64,000 nt of DNA from an uncultured Lachnospiraceae bacterium (GTDB taxonomy: Bacteria > Bacillota > Clostridia > Lachnospirales > Lachnospiraceae), in contig CANQPJ010000005.1 in assembly GCA_947625755.1 (NCBI GenBank), forward strand, positions 15,832-79,831. The letters run 5' to 3'. The notes below the pieces were generated by a model, which did not search any database, was not told the origin of the DNA, and worked only from the letters and a program-made list of their open reading frames with translations. The position numbers and the translations under genes were made by a program. Positions within the stretch are counted from its first letter, which is position 1. Each line of letters begins with the position of its first letter. Positions 3,032 to 19,821 of the stretch are shown here, piece by piece.

Positions 3032-4225
3032 CTATTTTGCCTCCTTATCTCTTAATCCGATATATCTGTGTGTAGGTCCTATATCACCGGTCTTTACAAT
3101 TTCCATCAATGTAGTGTACACGCTTTTCATATCGTCTACCGTAACATCTCTGCCGCCAATACCATACATGATATTGATTGTCTTTGCTGTGCAGCCGCCG
3201 GTATACATTGCCTGCATGGTCTCTGCTCCGACCGGACCTCCATTGGTTGAAAATGATTCGCTTCTGTCCATGATGGCTACTGCCTTACATTTCTTTAAAG
3301 AAGCTGCAATTTCTGCACCCGGGAAAGGTCTGAAGGAACGAATCTTGACCAATCCTACCTTTTGTCCTTCCTCTCTCATCTGGTCAATGGCTTCCTTTGC
3401 AGTACCTGCTGCAGAACCTATAATGACCATTGCATACTCTGCATCCTCCATCTTATATTCTTCAATCAGACCGTATTTACGTCCGGAAATTTTTTCAAAA
3501 TCTTTTGCCACATCCAAAATTACCTGTTTCGCATTTTCCATGGCATGTGCCTGTGCTTTTCTTGATTCCATGTAATAATCAGATACGGCGTATGGACCGA
3601 CTGCAAATTTTTCTTCCGGATTTAAAAGATACTCAACCGGTTCTCTTTCTCCTACAAATTCTTTTACAGTCACATCATCCAAAAGCTCCATGTTCATCAT
3701 GGCATGACTGGTAATAAAACCATCCTGACAAATCATAATTGGAAGCATTACGTCTTTATGTTCAGCAATGTTAAATGCCATTACCATATTGTCATAAGCC
3801 TCCTGATTGTCCTCTGCATATAACTGAATCCAACCGGAATCTCTTGCCCCCATGGTATCAGAATGGTCACAGTTAATATTAAGCGGTCCTGTGAGCGCAC
3901 GACATACAGCTGCAAGTCCTACCGGCAGTCTGCTGGAAGCTGCAACTCCCAGTACCTCCCACATAAATGCAAGACCTGCTGATGATGTAGCTGTCAATGC
4001 TCTGGCTCCTGCCGCAGAGGCACCCATTGCCGCACTCATGGAACTATGCTCCGATTCTACCGTGATAAACTCTGTATCCACCAGTCCATTGGCAACATAG
4101 TTGGAAAAATACTGTGGTATCTCTGTAGATGGTGTAATAGGAAATGCCGGGAATACATCTGGATTAATCTGTCTGAGTGCTGTTGCCACTGCCTCATTTC
4201 CTGACATTAATACTTTCTTTGGCAT
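3032..4225 (-). CDS. porA: Pyruvate:ferredoxin oxidoreductase alpha subunit
   Basis: GNEAVA, FPITPSTEI, VESEHSSMSA, TATSSAGL motifs. Confidence 0.92.
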   Translation of the reverse strand: MPKKVLMSGNEAVATALRQINPDVFPAFPITPSTEIPQYFSNYVANGLVDTEFITVESEHSSMSAAMGASAAGARALTATSSAGLAFMWEVLGVAASSRLPVGLAAVCRALTGPLNINCDHSDTMGARDSGWIQLYAEDNQEAYDNMVMAFNIAEHKDVMLPIMICQDGFITSHAMMNMELLDDVTVKEFVGEREPVEYLLNPEEKFAVGPYAVSDYYMESRKAQAHAMENAKQVILDVAKDFEKISGRKYGLIEEYKMEDAEYAMVIIGSAAGTAKEAIDQMREEGQKVGLVKIRSFRPFPGAEIAASLKKCKAVAIMDRSESFSTNGGPVGAETMQAMYTGGCTAKTINIMYGIGGRDVTVDDMKSVYTTLMEIVKTGDIGPTHRYIGLRDKEAK

Positions 4226-14762: not shown

Positions 14763-17700
14763 CTATTCATTTTCCTGACCATCTTCAAATACGGAACCAT
14801 CAGCATTTACTGTCTGAAGTTCTTCCCCAACAAATTCCTGGGTCTGATACCCCGCCTGCGCAAATGCCTGACTGTCTTCTTTATTTTGACTAAAGTTTTT
14901 GTCACTGTTAAGAATTGCATTGAAATTTGTCTCACCATAATCGGTGCTTTCTTTCAATTCAACTACGTTATCTTCTTTATCCAATACATTTACATCCAGT
15001 GCCAATGCCTGAAGTTCCTTTACAAGTACCTTAAATGATTCCGGAATTCCCGGCTGAGGAATATTTTCACCCTTAATAATTGCTTCGTATGTCTTAACAC
15101 GTCCTACAACGTCGTCAGACTTGAAGGTTAAGATTTCCTGCAATGTATAAGAAGCGCCATAAGCCTCCAATGCCCAAACTTCCATTTCACCAAATCTCTG
15201 TCCACCAAACTGTGCCTTACCGCCAAGTGGCTGCTGGGTTACTAACGAATATGGACCTGTGGAACGTGCGTGAATCTTGTCGTCAACCAGATGATGAAGT
15301 TTCAGGTAATGCATGAAGCCGATTGTAACCGGGCTGTCAAAATAATCACCTGTTCTACCGTCACGAAGTCTTACCTTACCATCTCTTGCAATGGTCACGC
15401 CCTTCCACTCTTCCCGGTGGTCTAAATTATTTCCTAAATATTCCATAATCTCCGGTTTTAATGTGTCTTTATATTTTTCTACAAAATCTTCCCACTCTGT
15501 ATTGGCATAGTCATTGGCGAGTTCCAAAGTATCCATAATATCAAACTCGTCTGCTCCATCAAATACAGGAGTAGAAATATTGAATCCTAACACTTTTGCG
15601 GCAAGACTTAAATGAATCTCAAGTACCTGTCCAATATTCATACGCGAAGGTACGCCCAATGGGTTCAATACAATATCAAGAGGTCTTCCGTTTGGAAGAA
15701 ATGGCATATCTTCTACCGGAAGCACTCTGGAAACAACACCCTTGTTACCATGACGTCCAGCCATCTTATCACCAACAGAAATCTTTCTTTTCTGGGCGAT
15801 ATAAATACGAACGGATTCGTTTACGCCCGGAGCTAATTCATCTCCGTTTTCTCTCTTAAATACCTTGGCATCAACCACGATACCTGCTTCACCATGAGGA
15901 ACCTTCAAAGATGTATCCCTCACTTCTCTTGCCTTTTCACCAAAGATTGCACGAAGCAATCTCTCTTCCGGTGTCAGCTCCGTCTCTCCCTTTGGTGTAA
16001 CCTTACCAACCAAAATGTCACCGGCTCTTACTTCTGCACCGATTCTGATGATACCTCTTTCATCCAAATCTTTTCTCGCATCATCACCGACGCCCGGTAC
16101 ATCATTGGTAATCTCTTCCGGTCCAAGTTTTGTGTCTCTTGCTTCTGTCTCGTATTCTTCTATATGAATAGATGTATAAACATCATCCTGTACTAATCTT
16201 TCACTGATAAGTACCGCATCTTCGTAATTGTAGCCTTCCCATGTCATAAATCCAATCAATGGGTTCTTTCCAAGGGCGATTTCACCGTTTGATGTTGATG
16301 CACCATCGGCAATGACTTCTCCGGCTTCCACTCTGTCGCCTTTAAATACAATCGCTCTCTGGTTATAACAGTTACTCTGGTTACTTCTGGCAAACTTAAT
16401 TAAATGATATACATCTAAATCGCCATCATCTGTTCTAACGGTAATCTCTTTGGAAGTTGATTTTTCAACAACACCCGCACGTTTTGCCACTACGCATACA
16501 CCCGAGTCCACCGCTGCCTTACCTTCCATGCCGGTACCAACGACCGGTGCCTCTGTGGTCATAAGAGGAACTGCCTGACGCTGCATGTTAGAACCCATCA
16601 GGGCACGGTTTGCGTCATCATTCTGCAGGAATGGAATCATGGATGTTGCTACAGAAAATACCATTCTAGGAGAAACATCCATCAGGTCAATTCTCTTCTT
16701 ATCAAACTGTGATGTCTCCTCTCTGTAACGTCCGGATACATTCTTATTTACAAAATATCCGTTTTCATCTAAAGGCTCATTCGCCTGTGCAACAGTATAG
16801 TTATCTTCTTCATCTGCTGTAATATATATTACTTCATCTGTAACACGTGGATTATCCGGATCCGACTTATCTACAACTCTGTATGGAGCCTCAATAAATC
16901 CATACTCATTCAACCTTGCAAAAGAAGCAAATGAGTTAATCAGACCAATGTTCGGTCCTTCCGGTGTCTCAATCGGACACATTCTGCCGTAATGTGTATA
17001 GTGAACGTCTCGGACTTCGAAGCCGGCACGGTCTCTGGAAAGACCGCCAGGTCCAAGCGCCGACAAACGTCTCTTGTGCGTCAACTCACCAAGTGGGTTG
17101 TTCTGATCCATAAACTGTGATAACTGGGAGCTTCCAAAGAATTCCTTTACAGCCGCAGTTACCGGTTTGATATTAATTAATGTCTGTGGAGAAACGCCTT
17201 CCAAGTCCTGTGTTGTCATTCTTTCACGAACAACTCTTTCCATTCTTGAAAGACCAATCCTATACTGATTCTGAAGTAATTCGCCCACTGCACGGATACG
17301 TCTGTTTCCTAAATGGTCAATATCATCAGAAGTTCCAATCCCATATTCAATATTTAACAAATAGTTAATGGATGCAAGAATATCTTCCTTTGTAATATGC
17401 TTTGGAACTAATTCATGTGCATTTCTCTTAATTGCATCCTTTAATTCTTCTTCCGTCTCATTTTCTGCTAAAATTTCAGCAAGTACCGGATAATAAACAT
17501 CCTCTAAAATACCTAATTCCTTACAATCAAAATCAACATATGTGCTAATATCAACTGCCATATTTGACAACACTTTTTCATTCTTCACATCTGTCTGTAT
17601 TACAACGGATGGAATTGCGGCATTCTGAATCTGAATAGCAAGCTCTTTTGTAACCGTTGTTCCTGCCTCTGCCAGAACTTCTCCCGTAGACATATCAATA

Positions 17701-18593
17701 ACATCTTCCGCTAAAATATGTCCTACAATTCTGCTCTTGTAAGCAAGTTTTTTATTGTACTTATATCTGCCTACCCTTGCAAGGTCATATCTCTTTGGAT
17801 CAAAAAACATACCGGTGATAATAGACTCCGCACTATCGACACTAAGCGGTTCACCCGGACGAATCTTTTTATATAATTCTAAAAGACCACTTTCATAGTC
17901 TTCGCTTTGATCCTTTTCAAAAGTCGCAAGCAGTTTATCTTCCTCACCAAACAACTCTGTAATTTCAGCATTCGTTCCTACGCCCAGCGCTCTGATAAGA
18001 ACTGTTACAGGAACTTTTCTGGTTCTGTCCACACGAACATAGAATACATCATTAGAGTCTGTTTCATATTCTAACCATGCACCACGATTTGGAATAACCT
18101 GTGATGTATATAATTTCTTTCCTACCTTATCATGAGCGATAACATAATAAATTCCCGGGGAACGAACTAACTGACTGACGATAACACGTTCAGCGCCGTT
18201 AATTACAAAAGTACCGGTCTCTGTCATAAGCGGTAAATCACCCATGAAAATATCGTGTTCTGTAAACTCCCCTGTCTCCTTGTTATGAAGTCTGACTTTT
18301 ACTTTTAAAGGGGCAGCATAAGTTGCATCTCTTTCCTTGCACTCTTCAATCGAATACTTTTTATCTTCTTCACATAGTCTGAAGTCGATAAATTCAAGGC
18401 TTAAATTTTGGGCATAATCTTCAATCGGAGAAATATCATCTAATACTTCTCTTAATCCCGTAGTAAGGAACCATTCATATGAGTCTCTTTGTACTTCAAT
18501 AAGATTTGGCATTTCGAGCACATCTTTCTGTCTTGAATAGCTCATACGAATACCTTTTCCTGCTTTTACAGGAGTGATTCTGTTCTTCTCCAT
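14763..18593 (-). CDS. rpoB: DNA-directed RNA polymerase beta subunit
   Basis: [42 protein letters not shown]; start 18593 (alternative 18599). Confidence 0.99.
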
Positions 18594-18690
18594 CGACATT
18601 ACTCTCCTTGTCTTAATATAATTAATTATTTTACTACTATTACTTAATTTAATTAAGTTTTTTGGTCGTTATGTCAACCAGACACCTGCC

Positions 18691-18716
18691 AAAAGGGCGC
18701 ACTACGCCCTTTTTTA
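18691..18716 (-). promoter_or_regulatory. GC-rich hairpin in the rpoB 5' leader (attenuator-like)
   Basis: Minus strand AAAAGGGCG-UAGUG-CGCCCUUUU just downstream of the rpoB promoter. Confidence 0.5.
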
Positions 18717-18731
18717 CGCATATCAAATTTA

Positions 18732-18760
18732 AATATACCATTAAAAAAAAAAGAAGTCAA
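18732..18760 (-). promoter_or_regulatory. SigmaA promoter of rpoBC
   Basis: TTGACT-17 nt (contains T10)-TATATT with TGn extension. Confidence 0.7.
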
Positions 18761-18808
18761 GCATTTTTGTAATCTTTTCCAACTTGCGAAAATCACAACA
18801 ACGCCGTT

Positions 18809-18898
18809 TCAAATTTTTATATACCTTTCATCAATCGGTATCATATCATTAAAATTTAAGACACCAGCTATTTTATCTTTATCAAATCTATGGCAAAT
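18809..18898 (-). pseudogene. Remnant of a ToxN/AbiQ-like (type III toxin-antitoxin) toxin gene
   Basis: Minus-strand frame reads ICHRFDKDKIAGVLNFNDMIPIDERYIKI*; GVLNFNDMIPI resembles the ToxN/AbiQ core G-x-(I/L)-N-(F/L)-x-x-M-I-P motif; overlapping frame reads AIDLIKIK; no start codon or 5' half. Confidence 0.5.
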
Positions 18899-19265
18899 TC
18901 ATGATGTGGGAAAATCAATTACATATATTTTTTACAATACAAGCCAGATATATATGTAAATTCTTGGTGAATTCATAATCAGGGAGAATGCATTACATAT
19001 ATGTTTTACAATACAAACCACATATATATGTAAATTCTTGGATAATTCATAATTGGGGAGAATCAATTACATATATTCTTTACAATACACTCTTGATATA
19101 TATGTAAATTCTTGGTGAATTCATAATCGGAAAGAATGCATTACATATATTCTTTACAATACACTCCAAATATATATGTAAATTTTTGGAAAATTCATAG
19201 CAAGTCAAAATATATTACATATCTATATCAAATTATAAAATGCTAATATATGTAAATTATAAATA
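18896..19265. repeat. Non-coding tandem array of 74-bp units (4 well-conserved plus 1 degenerate), each with an internal inverted repeat
   Basis: Units start at 18896, 18970, 19044, 19118, 19192; units 3 vs 4 match 63/74 and units 2 vs 4 match 64/74; arms TTACATATAT-N21-ATATATGTAA. Confidence 0.95.
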
Positions 19266-19381
19266 TTGCAAGAAAACAAAGCTTACAAAAGACGATTCAG
19301 AAAATGAAAGGTGTAATTAATTTTAGAACTTGCACTAAAATCAACAATATATGTTCTCTTCCCTTATTTACCGTAAAACAA

Positions 19382-19422
19382 AAGAATACCCGCATCAGTG
19401 CAAGCACAATGCGGGTATTCTT
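19382..19422 (-). terminator. rplL terminator
   Basis: aagaatacccgcat-N13-atgcgggtattctt, followed by UUUUGUUUU on the minus strand. Confidence 0.8.
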
Positions 19423-19455: not shown

Positions 19456-19821
19456 TTATTTAAGAGTAACTGTTGCTCCAACATCTTCTAACTGTTTCTT
19501 AAGAGCTTCTGCTTCCTCTTTAGAAAGACCTTCTTTAACAACCTTAGGAGCTCCGTCAACTACTTCTTTAGCTTCTTTCAGTCCTAAACCTGTTGCATCC
19601 TTAACAGCCTTGATAACCTTAACCTTCTGGTCACCTACTTCTGTTAACTCAACATCAAATTCAGTCTTTTCTTCTGTTGCTGCACCTTCTGCACCACCTG
19701 CTGCAACTACAACACCTGCTGCTGCGGATACACCAAATTCTTCTTCACATGCCTTTACAAGGTCATTTAATTCTAATACTGATAATCCTTTGATTACCTC
19801 AATGATTTCTTCTGTTGTCAT
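19456..19821 (-). CDS. rplL: 50S ribosomal protein L7/L12
   Basis: [41 protein letters not shown]; start ATG 19821 after SD GGAGG. Confidence 0.98.

What the first reader, a model, noticed from the sequence alone, without database searches (positions are those of the whole stretch)
18896..19265. 74-bp tandem array with invariant inverted arms and an A-B-A-B higher-order pattern between rplL and rpoB
Seen: five units at an exact 74-bp period (18896, 18970, 19044, 19118, 19192; the last is degenerate). Each carries TTACATATAT-N21-ATATATGTAA and, in units 1-4, TTTACAATACA inside the loop. Variation is concentrated at unit positions about 7-22 and 46-53, while the arms are unchanged apart from one base in unit 5. 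Units 1/3 share caatt and ggtg, and units 2/4 share gcatt and gga, which suggests duplication of a 148-bp dimer. 74 is not a multiple of 3 and the array contains no ORF. It sits between the rplL terminator and the rpoB promoter. Inference: either an array of structured RNA units (one hairpin per repeat) or an array of binding sites for a dimeric protein. I cannot match it to a repeat family I know.
Basis: partly seen in the sequence, partly recalled or inferred. Interest (0 to 1): 0.75.

Follow-up and report, generated by a model that had tools for sequence, protein, structure and literature searches.

The report
Dispersed modular 74-bp intergenic repeat
The 74-bp array between rplL and rpoB is real, but it is one local copy of a repeat family scattered through the intergenic DNA of a few rodent and rabbit gut Eubacterium species, comparable to pneumococcal BOX elements, and not a conserved control element of rpoB.

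Summary
There are four near-perfect 74-bp units and a fifth divergent one at 18896-19265, each with TTACATATAT-N21-ATATATGTAA (5 matches, 0.01 expected by chance). Independent assemblies of the same species also carry the array, with 4 or 5 regular units.

It is not specific to rpoB. Sister species (RplL 93-97% identical) keep the rpoB promoter and leader but have no array there. The same unit occurs as short arrays (2-4 units, period 72-75) at about 30 unrelated intergenic sites in four related Eubacterium MAG species, and at roughly 10-20-fold depth in the source rabbit gut metagenome.

The family has a fixed order: left cap, first unit, middle units, then two special terminal units.

The cores TACAT and ATGTA never vary in 67 distinct units, and spacing is tightly held. 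Loops and spacers diverge. Changes in the arms break pairing rather than compensate, and the hairpins are weak.

Best reading: a BOX/BrickBuilt-like modular interspersed repeat. Its arms are most likely protein recognition sites on duplex DNA, and it expands and contracts by recombination. It is a new member of a known kind. The binding protein, any transcription and the mode of spread are unknown.

The parts
18886..18918 (+). Left cap: a spacer-like sequence (..AATTCATGATGTGGGAAAATCAA) that precedes the first unit
   Evidence: It resembles the regular 33-nt inter-unit spacer and the left ends of arrays in other genomes. The left limit is approximate.
18919..18992 (+). First regular unit (F): arms 18919-18928 and 18950-18959, a 21-nt loop and a 33-nt spacer
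   Evidence: Exact motif match. Its k-mers have about 79x depth against about 8x in the flanks in the source metagenome, so this unit type is multi-copy.
18993..19214 (+). Three middle units (M1 18993-19066, M2 19067-19140, M3 19141-19214)
   Evidence: Exact motif matches at 18993, 19067 and 19141. Their number and order differ between strains, with 4 or 5 regular units in all.
19215..19282 (+). Terminal unit T1: TTACATATCT, a 21-nt loop and ATATATGTAA (19246-19255), followed by the spacer ATTATAAATATTGCAAG...
   Evidence: The TTACATATCT left arm and the last-but-one position in the array are conserved in the CAJTDQ, CAJTRZ and CAJFUA arrays. This unit has the highest depth, 120-165x.
19283..19356 (+). 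Terminal unit T2-like: a degenerate left arm TTACAAAAGA (19283-19292), GATTCAGAAAATGAA, an enlarged loop, and the right arm ATATATGTTC (19347-19356)
   Evidence: It aligns with the ATACAT..agattcaaagaataata..ATATATGTAA unit that ends arrays in other species. The assignment is by similarity and is less certain than T1.
19246..19346 (.). A 101-bp segment present in the window and L004 but absent from L001, L002, L003, L006 and L008. The deletion joins the T1 loop to the T2 right arm.
   Evidence: Alignment A1 shows a 101-column gap. The junction in the deleted strains reads ..AAAATGCTA|CTATATGTTC. This fits recombination between the right arms of T1 and T2. The boundaries are ambiguous by about 8 nt.
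19375..19418 (-). Context: the rplL intrinsic terminator (stem ATACCCGCA/TGCGGGTAT plus a T run), about 20 nt from the T2 end of the element
   Evidence: (inverted repeat I1).
18732..18760 (-). Context: the rpoB promoter TTGACT-17-TATATT with a TG extension, 136 bp from the array. It is conserved in sister species that lack the array.
   Evidence: alignment A3.
18695..18709 (-). Context: a conserved hairpin in the rpoB leader (GGGCGTAGTGCGCCC followed by TTTT)
   Evidence: It is conserved in L072, L074 and L077.

Best explanation
The array is a local copy of a lineage-restricted, non-coding, modular interspersed repeat. Its order is left cap, first unit, a variable number of 74-bp middle units, and two special terminal units.

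Shown:
- The family is scattered through intergenic DNA of a small clade of rodent and rabbit gut Eubacterium species.
- It sits next to unrelated housekeeping genes.
- It tends to lie at gene 3' ends.
- It is absent from the rplL-rpoB spacer of sister species.
- It varies in unit number and order between strains.

Inferred:
- The arrays grow, shrink and lose ends by recombination or slippage between units. The 101-bp T1/T2 deletion is an example.
- Copies within a genome are homogenised, or re-seeded, so that spacers are genome-specific.
- The invariant TACAT...ATGTA cores, held at fixed spacing (21-nt loop, 33-nt spacer, period 74, about 7 helical turns), are recognition sites on duplex DNA for a trans-acting protein. 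The most economical candidate is the protein that mobilises or maintains the element, in the manner of terminal inverted repeats.
- At this locus the element is a tolerated passenger between an intact rplL terminator and an intact rpoB promoter, with at most incidental effects on rpoB.
For: Reality and polymorphism:
- The motif gives 5 matches against 0.01 expected.
- Contigs of the same species from other samples carry 4 or 5 regular units in different orders, and differ by a 101-bp T1/T2 deletion.

Dispersal:
- About 30 of the 58 genome hits fall in four related MAG species.
- Nearly all of these are arrays of 2-4 units.
- The window is 83% identical to one of these genomes over 3.4 kb.
- Repeat k-mers reach 79-165x depth against 8x in the flanks, and loose ends show divergent flanks.

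Not tied to rpoB:
- Sister species have a 354-bp spacer, or an inserted symporter gene, with the same promoter and leader and no array.

Neighbours:
- 130 neighbouring ORFs hit 185 Pfam families. None is a recurring mobile-element or partition family.
- Of 20 arrays with both neighbours known, 9 lie between convergent genes, 9 between co-directional genes and 2 between divergent genes.

Conserved architecture: the terminal units T1 and T2 are shared across three species.

Sequence constraint without pairing constraint:
- TACAT/ATGTA is invariant in 67/67 units.
- Changed arm cells: 70 break pairing, 25 give G-U and 3 are compensatory.
- Covariation is no better than in slid controls.
- Hairpins are weak.

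Spacing: periods are 72-75 with 47 of 76 at 74. Loops are 21 nt in 88 of 112 units.

Orthologous loci:
- L012 and L042 both carry arrays whose arms are intact but whose spacers are genome-specific.
- L033 and L035 carry the array in opposite orientation.

Published analogues exist: BOX (PMC3049150) and BrickBuilt (PMC4596501).
Against: - No target-site duplication could be defined.
- Beyond the 10-nt arms there is no terminal inverted repeat.
- No transposase or IS with matching ends was found. Only about 8 kb around each array was examined.
- Two orthologous locus pairs both keep an array. That fits long-term retention, and possibly a host function, at least as well as mobility. The pairs could only be found if both carried an array, so this is a biased sample.
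- Conservation of the arms could reflect a host protein rather than a mobilising one.
- Transcription was not testable. The runs labelled RNA behave like DNA.
- No binding protein is identified.
Confidence: 0.6

Rival explanations
1. The arrays are host-recruited protein-binding platforms, and spread is only their origin. In this reading they are phased arrays of dyad sites bound by a nucleoid-associated protein, a topoisomerase or another sequence-specific protein at gene ends. This would be analogous to enterobacterial BIMEs, which bind IHF and DNA gyrase (established knowledge).
For: - Invariant cores and tightly conserved spacing despite roughly 50% divergence of loops and spacers.
- A period of 74 bp is about 7 helical turns. 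The arm centres are 31 bp apart, about 3 turns (sequence arithmetic).
- Enrichment between convergent genes.
- Arrays kept at two orthologous loci in different species.
- Function would be independent of orientation, as seen at L033/L035.
Against: - The array is absent from the rplL-rpoB spacer in sister species.
- Unit number varies freely between strains, and one end is deleted in most strains.
- There is no bias with respect to replication direction, 16 against 12.
- No candidate protein is known.
- Convergent-gene enrichment is also what purifying selection against promoter disruption gives for any selfish insert.
Confidence: 0.17
2. The arrays are non-coding RNA genes or RNA modules with one hairpin per unit. 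Examples would be a multi-hairpin RNA that sequesters a protein, or 3'-end stabilisers or processing sites when transcribed by read-through.
For: - Every unit can form a 10-12-bp stem.
- Some arrays are followed by terminator-like hairpins in the right cap (read).
- Many arrays begin 30-60 nt after the terminator of a co-directional gene (read).
- Some copies in other species have TTGAAA-N17-TATATT in the spacer (read).
- BOX and BrickBuilt elements are transcribed.
Against: - Array folding is not better than shuffles, z = -1.25 and -0.78.
- Stems are A/T-only apart from one C-G pair, with 21-nt loops, at -2.6 to -5.6 kcal/mol.
- Arm changes mostly break pairing, 70 against 3 compensatory.
- Covariation score is 0.110, against 0.136 and 0.091 for partners slid by 2.
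- There is no Rfam hit even at permissive thresholds.
- Orientation relative to neighbours is mixed and is flipped at an orthologous locus.
- The promoter-like hexamers are not kept in the window's own units, which read TGCATT or TCAATT.
Confidence: 0.1
3. The array is a locus-specific cis-regulator of rpoB or rplL. It could be an operator or decoy array, an upstream activating or bent-DNA element for the rpoB promoter, or an insulator between the two transcription units.
For: It lies 136 bp upstream of the rpoB -35 and about 20 nt beyond the rplL terminator. All strains of this species examined keep it.
Against: - Sister species with the same promoter and leader have no array.
- The same element lies beside unrelated genes at about 30 other sites.
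- Unit number, unit order and the terminal end vary between strains.
Confidence: 0.05
4. The array is an assembly or read artefact, such as a collapsed or chimeric repeat.
For: Short-read contigs often break inside the array.
Against: Independent assemblies from several samples span it with consistent flanks. Unitigs tile the whole array at flank-like depth. Homologous arrays exist in other genomes, including an isolate genome.
Confidence: 0.01

Closest known systems
Pneumococcal BOX elements (boxA-boxB(n)-boxC)
   Same: Both are dispersed, non-coding, intergenic and modular. Distinct terminal modules flank a tandem internal module whose copy number differs between loci and strains. BOX size varies through unequal crossover or slippage. 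BOX elements cluster with, and insert into, other small repeats (PMC3049150). Here a 310-bp MITE and another repeat flank many arrays.
   Different: There is no sequence relationship. The internal unit is 74 bp (boxB is 45 bp by my recollection; one search gives no size) and carries a wide dyad (10-nt arms, 21-nt loop) with invariant cores. BOX has recognised terminal inverted repeats, target-site duplications and a proposed parent IS. None of these could be shown here. BOX RNA folds tightly, whereas these units fold weakly.
BrickBuilt MITE with internal minisatellite (Porphyromonas gingivalis)
   Same: BrickBuilt has leader, tandem repeat and tail architecture. It has about 19 copies per genome, is always intergenic and has a limited host range (PMC4596501).
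   Different: The BrickBuilt unit is 23 nt with no spacers and has small inverted-repeat ends. Promoter activity was shown experimentally for it, and nothing was tested here. The host is in a different phylum.
REP/BIME clusters of enterobacteria
   Same: Both consist of a short motif in alternating orientation, separated by spacers of two fixed kinds, in arrays at gene 3' ends. BIMEs are bound by host proteins such as IHF and gyrase (established knowledge).
   Different: REPs are G+C-rich stable hairpins with small loops, associated with RAYT (Y1) transposases. Here the stems are A/T-rich and weak with 21-nt loops, and no Y1 transposase was seen nearby.
Plasmid centromere or iteron arrays (for example F sopC: 12 tandem 43-bp units, each with a dyad site)
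   Same: Both are tandem units that each carry one dyad-symmetric site at a fixed, helically phased period. This is the classical layout of a protein-binding array (established knowledge).
   Different: Those arrays are single loci next to their parAB or rep genes on plasmids. Here there are many chromosomal arrays with no partition or replication genes nearby, and no match in plasmid or phage collections.
CRISPR arrays
   Same: The period (about 74 bp) is similar, the repeated part is partly palindromic, and the terminal unit is degenerate.
   Different: The 33-nt 'spacers' are homologous to one another within and between arrays. No cas genes lie nearby. Arrays have only 2-6 units.

Membership tests
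MITE (miniature inverted-repeat transposable element) | Many dispersed copies in one genome, next to unrelated genes | tested here: met
   There are 9, 11, 6 and 4 array loci in four MAG species. Neighbouring genes are diverse. Depth is 10-20-fold in the source metagenome.
MITE (miniature inverted-repeat transposable element) | Small, non-coding, A+T-rich | tested here: met
   Elements are about 150-470 bp. GC is 23-26% against about 40% in the flanks. There is no conserved ORF on either strand.
MITE (miniature inverted-repeat transposable element) | Terminal inverted repeats | tested here: inconclusive
   The outermost arms (TTACATATAT / ATATATGTAA) are inverted repeats, but so is every internal pair. 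The caps beyond them show no further inverted similarity.
MITE (miniature inverted-repeat transposable element) | Target-site duplication | tested here: inconclusive
   No alignable empty/filled site pair was available. Spacers of sister species are too diverged upstream of the promoter.
MITE (miniature inverted-repeat transposable element) | A parent IS or transposase with matching ends | tested here: not met
   No transposase or integrase family recurs among 130 ORFs within 4 kb of 29 arrays. Whole genomes could not be searched, so this is a weak negative.
MITE (miniature inverted-repeat transposable element) | Presence/absence polymorphism between related genomes | tested here: met
   The array is present in the rplL-rpoB spacer of this species and absent in three sister lineages.
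BOX-like modular interspersed repeat | Distinct end modules flanking a tandem internal module of variable number | tested here: met
   The order left cap, F, M(n), T1, T2 is conserved in three species and in the window. Arrays have 2-6 units, and strains of one species have 4 or 5 regular units.
BOX-like modular interspersed repeat | Sequence homology to boxA, boxB or boxC | not tested
   No BOX sequences were compared. The resemblance is architectural only.
REP/BIME | Stable G+C-rich hairpin with a small loop | tested here: not met
   Stems are A/T-only apart from one C-G pair, loops are 21 nt, and free energy is -2.6 to -5.6 kcal/mol as DNA.
Structured RNA family (Rfam, or a new one) | Match to a curated covariance model | tested here: not met
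   Nothing relevant was found at E up to 10 in the window region or E up to 0.1 in four related loci.
Structured RNA family (Rfam, or a new one) | Base pairs kept through compensatory changes | tested here: not met
   Five pairs never vary. Elsewhere 70 changed cells break pairing against 3 compensatory. The covariation score of 0.110 is not above the slid controls.
Structured RNA family (Rfam, or a new one) | A transcript exists | not testable with these tools
   No RNA run holds the window's species. Runs labelled RNA for the relative's element show flat, DNA-like depth and contigs over 65 kb.
CRISPR | Unique spacers between identical repeats, with cas genes nearby | tested here: not met
   The spacers share a consensus. 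No cas families occur among the neighbours.
Plasmid-type centromere or iteron array | Adjacent partition or replication genes, on a plasmid or phage | tested here: not met
   No such neighbours were found. There are no plasmid or phage matches. Viral contigs give only 6 single chance-level hits.
Conserved rpoB leader or regulatory element | Conserved at the same position in related species | tested here: not met
   The promoter and leader hairpin are conserved, but the array is not.

The most novel reading that the evidence does not exclude
The arrays are not mere passengers. They would be phased, orientation-independent docking platforms for an unidentified sequence-specific DNA-binding protein that recognises TACAT-N31-ATGTA, kept at gene ends across species. 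That would make them a Gram-positive functional counterpart of BIMEs, for example organising local topology or the nucleoid between transcription units. Alternatively, they could be multi-hairpin RNAs that titrate a protein. The strict invariance of the cores, the fixed spacing and the retention at orthologous loci do not exclude this.
Probability: 0.15. Interest if true: 0.65.

Novelty: new member of a known kind. Interest (0 to 1): 0.35.

Why it matters
For annotation, the array should not be read as an rpoB regulator, a CRISPR-like array or a new riboswitch-like RNA. It marks a previously undescribed interspersed repeat family in uncultured or little-studied gut Eubacterium.

Such families have practical consequences. 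They break short-read assemblies, as seen here. They provide variable-number tandem-repeat (VNTR) markers for strain typing. They can alter expression of neighbouring genes, and they reveal recombination activity.

The unusual feature is a wide dyad with absolutely invariant 5-nt cores at fixed spacing, while everything else drifts. This gives a clean handle for finding the protein that recognises it. One carrier (MGBC000141, strain B88_13_EV_BP) is recorded as an isolate, so the experiment is feasible.

Tried and rejected
- **Known RNA families and tRNA-like units:** Rfam was run at permissive thresholds on the window region and on related loci, and ARAGORN on 30 loci. Nothing relevant was found.
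- **Whole-array RNA structure:** not better than shuffles on either strand.
- **Promoter array:** the consensus scan finds fewer promoter-like sites than shuffles (5 against 7.3) and none recurring per unit. TTGAAA-N17-TATATT occurs in spacers of some other species but not in the window's units. Only 8 of 25 arrays have a co-oriented gene downstream.
- **Hidden small ORF in the T1/T2 flank on the reverse strand:** stop codons occur in all frames and there is no conservation.
- **Phage, plasmid or virus origin:** no matches in the phage or plasmid collections. Viral contigs gave only 6 single chance-level hits.
- **Polar chromosomal element such as KOPS or Ter:** array orientation against GC skew is 16 to 12.
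- **Linked gene such as a transposase, integrase, Par or Cas protein:** none recurs among 130 neighbouring ORFs.
- **Expression evidence:** no RNA run holds the window's species. Runs labelled metatranscriptomic for the relative's element have contigs over 65 kb and flat depth, so they only confirm copy number.
- **Metagenome scan:** Only L096 and L194 were further arrays.
- **Empty-site comparison with MGBC000141 near the window's 1.6-kb position:** synteny ends there.
- **Recalled operator consensuses (dif/Xer, NrdR, TyrR, PadR, ARG box):** these were compared from memory only. None fits the 21-nt and 33-nt spacings, and none is claimed.

Full report
**1. The observation**

The genes here are on the minus strand: rplL at 19456-19821 and rpoB at 14763-18599. 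Reading with the genes, the order is:
- the rplL stop codon;
- a strong intrinsic terminator (19375-19418);
- the array;
- about 136 bp of unique sequence;
- a sigma-70-type promoter, TTGACT-17-TATATT with a TG extension (18760-18732);
- a leader hairpin (18695-18709);
- the ribosome-binding site and rpoB.

Tandem Repeats Finder gives period 74, 4.1 copies and score 412 at 18896-19199. TTACATATAT-N21-ATATATGTAA occurs four times exactly and once with one mismatch, at 74-bp steps. Shuffles predict 0.01 matches, and the motif occurs nowhere else in the window. A family-level HMM also finds no other copy in the 64 kb.

The A-B-A-B pattern is weak. Identities are 88% and 86% for units 1/3 and 2/4, against 80-85% for the other pairs.

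**2. The array is real and polymorphic**

Contigs from other samples that encode the identical RplL carry the array. Aligning them and listing their units shows:
- L003 has 4 regular units, like the window. L001 and L006 have 5.
- The middle units come in different orders.
- The gca/caa alternation appears only in the window and L003.
- A 101-bp segment (19246-19346) is present in the window and L004 but missing from five other contigs.

Short-read unitigs tile the array at flank-like depth. Many contigs end inside it.

**3. It is not an rpoB feature**

RplL homologues at 93-97% identity led to the same region in sister lineages.
- One lineage has a 354-bp rplL-rpoB spacer.
- Two lineages have a Na+/alanine symporter gene behind a glycine riboswitch inserted between rplL and rpoB.

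All of them keep the rpoB promoter, the leader hairpin and the ribosome-binding site almost unchanged. None has the array. The array is a lineage-specific addition upstream of a conserved promoter.

**4. It belongs to a dispersed family**

An exact-pattern scan of one genome per prokaryotic species gave 58 loci. About 30 of them fall in just four related MAG or isolate genomes labelled Eubacterium or Eubacteriaceae. These are CAJTDQ01 (MGBC000141), CAJTRZ01 (MGBC106873), CAJFUA01 and CANPET01. The window is 83% identical to MGBC000141 over 3.4 kb of coding DNA.

In nearly all of these loci the motif sits in a short array. Across 76 intervals the period is 72-75, with 47 at exactly 74. The loop is 21 nt in 88 of 112 units, and the outer spacer is 32-34 nt.

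The arrays are intergenic and their neighbours are ordinary, unrelated genes such as PFK, ABC exporters, PTS and YfhO. Among 130 neighbouring ORFs, 185 Pfam families are hit and no transposase, integrase, partition or Cas family recurs. Of 20 arrays with both neighbours known, 9 lie between convergent genes, 9 between co-directional genes (5 co-oriented with the array, 4 opposed) and 2 between divergent genes. There is no bias with respect to GC skew, 16 against 12.

In the source rabbit gut metagenome the flanks have about 8x depth. The k-mers of the first unit reach about 79x and those of the fifth unit 120-165x. Several different sequences continue beyond 19266. This suggests roughly 10-20 further copies in that genome or community.

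Phage, plasmid and viral collections hold nothing comparable. A large environmental metagenome collection added only two arrays.

**5. Architecture**

With all arrays oriented like the window's plus strand, the family has a fixed order:
- a spacer-like left cap;
- a first unit;
- middle units;
- a terminal unit T1, with TTACATATCT as left arm and ..AAAATAAGA.. in the loop;
- a second, more degenerate terminal unit T2 (ATACAT...agattcaaagaataata...ATATATGTAA);
- a short right cap.

A T2-like unit follows at 19283-19356, about 20 nt from the rplL terminator. The 101-bp strain difference joins the T1 loop directly to the T2 right arm, which is what recombination between the two right arms would produce.

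In MGBC000141 and MGBC106873 many arrays are flanked by copies of a separate palindromic MITE of about 310 bp. These copies give the whole 1.1-kb intergenic block a multi-copy appearance.

**6. What is conserved**

In 67 distinct units from at least five species the cores TACAT and ATGTA never vary. All arm mismatches fall in the inner four positions or the outermost one.

Loops and spacers keep only a loose consensus and are genome-specific. Where arm positions change:
- 70 cells lose pairing;
- 25 become G-U;
- 3 are compensatory, and another 3 change on both sides without pairing.

The formal pair count gives a covariation score of 0.110. Partners slid by two columns give 0.136 and 0.091. 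Fewer pairs show double changes than in shuffles. Single units fold at only -2.6 to -5.6 kcal/mol as DNA. Whole arrays fold no better than shuffles.

The constraint is therefore on the sequence and its spacing, not on base pairing. That points to recognition of duplex DNA by a protein rather than to an RNA or cruciform structure. This is an inference, since no protein has been identified.

**7. Persistence and turnover**

Two pairs of orthologous loci were found between species.
- At L012 and L042 the flanking genes are 88% identical. Both species carry an array in the same orientation. The arms are intact, but the spacers match each genome's own family consensus rather than each other. This implies homogenisation within genomes, or repeated replacement.
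- At L033 and L035 the flanking gene is 92% identical. The array and its right cap are inverted relative to the gene. In L035 MITE-related segments lie on both sides of the array.

These pairs could only be detected if both members carried an array, so they say nothing about the rate of loss. They do show that orientation relative to the neighbouring gene is free.

**8. Interpretation**

The closest known things are modular interspersed repeats:
- pneumococcal BOX (boxA-boxB(n)-boxC), which varies in size by gain and loss of boxB modules and clusters with other repeats (PMC3049150);
- the BrickBuilt MITE of P. gingivalis, with leader, 23-nt minisatellite and tail, 19 copies, always intergenic (PMC4596501).

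I file the array as a new member of that kind. Full MITE membership is not established. Multi-copy dispersal, small non-coding A+T-rich nature and presence/absence polymorphism are met. Terminal inverted repeats beyond the arms, target-site duplications and a parent transposase are not shown.

The most likely mechanism has three parts:
- a trans-acting protein recognises the paired cores;
- the arrays change by recombination between units;
- the copy at rplL-rpoB is a tolerated passenger between an intact terminator and an intact promoter.

Rivals, in order of likelihood, are a host-recruited BIME-like binding array, an RNA element and an rpoB-specific regulator. An artefact is excluded. Transcription could not be tested, because the only runs holding a relative's element behave like DNA.

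**9. Verdict**

This is a new family of a known kind and of moderate-to-low interest. The one noteworthy property is a wide dyad with invariant cores and fixed spacing, which makes the unknown binding partner experimentally accessible.

Noticed in passing
window 19246-19346: A 101-bp presence/absence difference between strains of the same species. It is present in the window and L004 and absent in L001, L002, L003, L006 and L008. The breakpoints lie in the right arms of the two terminal repeat units.
   Followed up: yes
window 18690-18715 (minus strand), and L072, L074, L077: A hairpin GGGCGTAGTGCGCCC followed by TTTT lies in the rpoB 5' leader, just downstream of the promoter. It is conserved across sister species. 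It looks like an attenuator or terminator-like leader element and has no Rfam match.
   Followed up: partly
L069 2532-2646, L072 2523-2634: In two sister lineages a Na+/alanine symporter gene preceded by a glycine riboswitch (Rfam RF00504, 50-58 bits) is inserted between rplL and rpoB. The spacer is therefore a recurrent site of lineage-specific insertions.
   Followed up: yes
L011 5155-5465 and 5996-6275 (also L020, L037, L042, L053, L035, L025, L040, L047): A separate palindromic MITE-like element of about 310 bp has ends AAATTTCGGTTTGTAGGGG.../...CCTCGACAAACCGGAATTT. It is present at 10-25-fold depth and often flanks the 74-bp arrays in two mouse-gut species.
   Followed up: partly
L033 about 470-600 and L012 about 3125-3260: A third shared intergenic repeat of about 120 bp (..CCAGACGTTAACACGTCTG..GCAAATGCCTGCTTA.GCAGTC.CTTGCTTTTC..) lies next to arrays in two species. 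Several repeat families cluster in the same spacers.
   Followed up: no
runs X29, X30, X36, X43 laid on L011 4400-7600: Runs labelled metatranscriptomic RNA-Seq contain contigs of 65-186 kb and give equal depth on neighbouring unrelated genes. They seem to hold mostly DNA and cannot be used as expression evidence.
   Followed up: partly
L104 379-538, L106 1374-1533 and related Ga01050xx / Ga02094xx contigs: Environmental metagenome contigs carry the same 20 specified bases inside AT-rich repeats with a period of about 120 bp or irregular spacing. They appear unrelated to the Eubacterium family.
   Followed up: no
window 18806-18831 and 19304-19329: A 26-nt inverted repeat, 73% complementary, brackets the array. 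The right copy lies inside the 101-bp segment that most strains lack, and depth there is single-copy. It is probably chance in A+T-rich DNA.
   Followed up: partly
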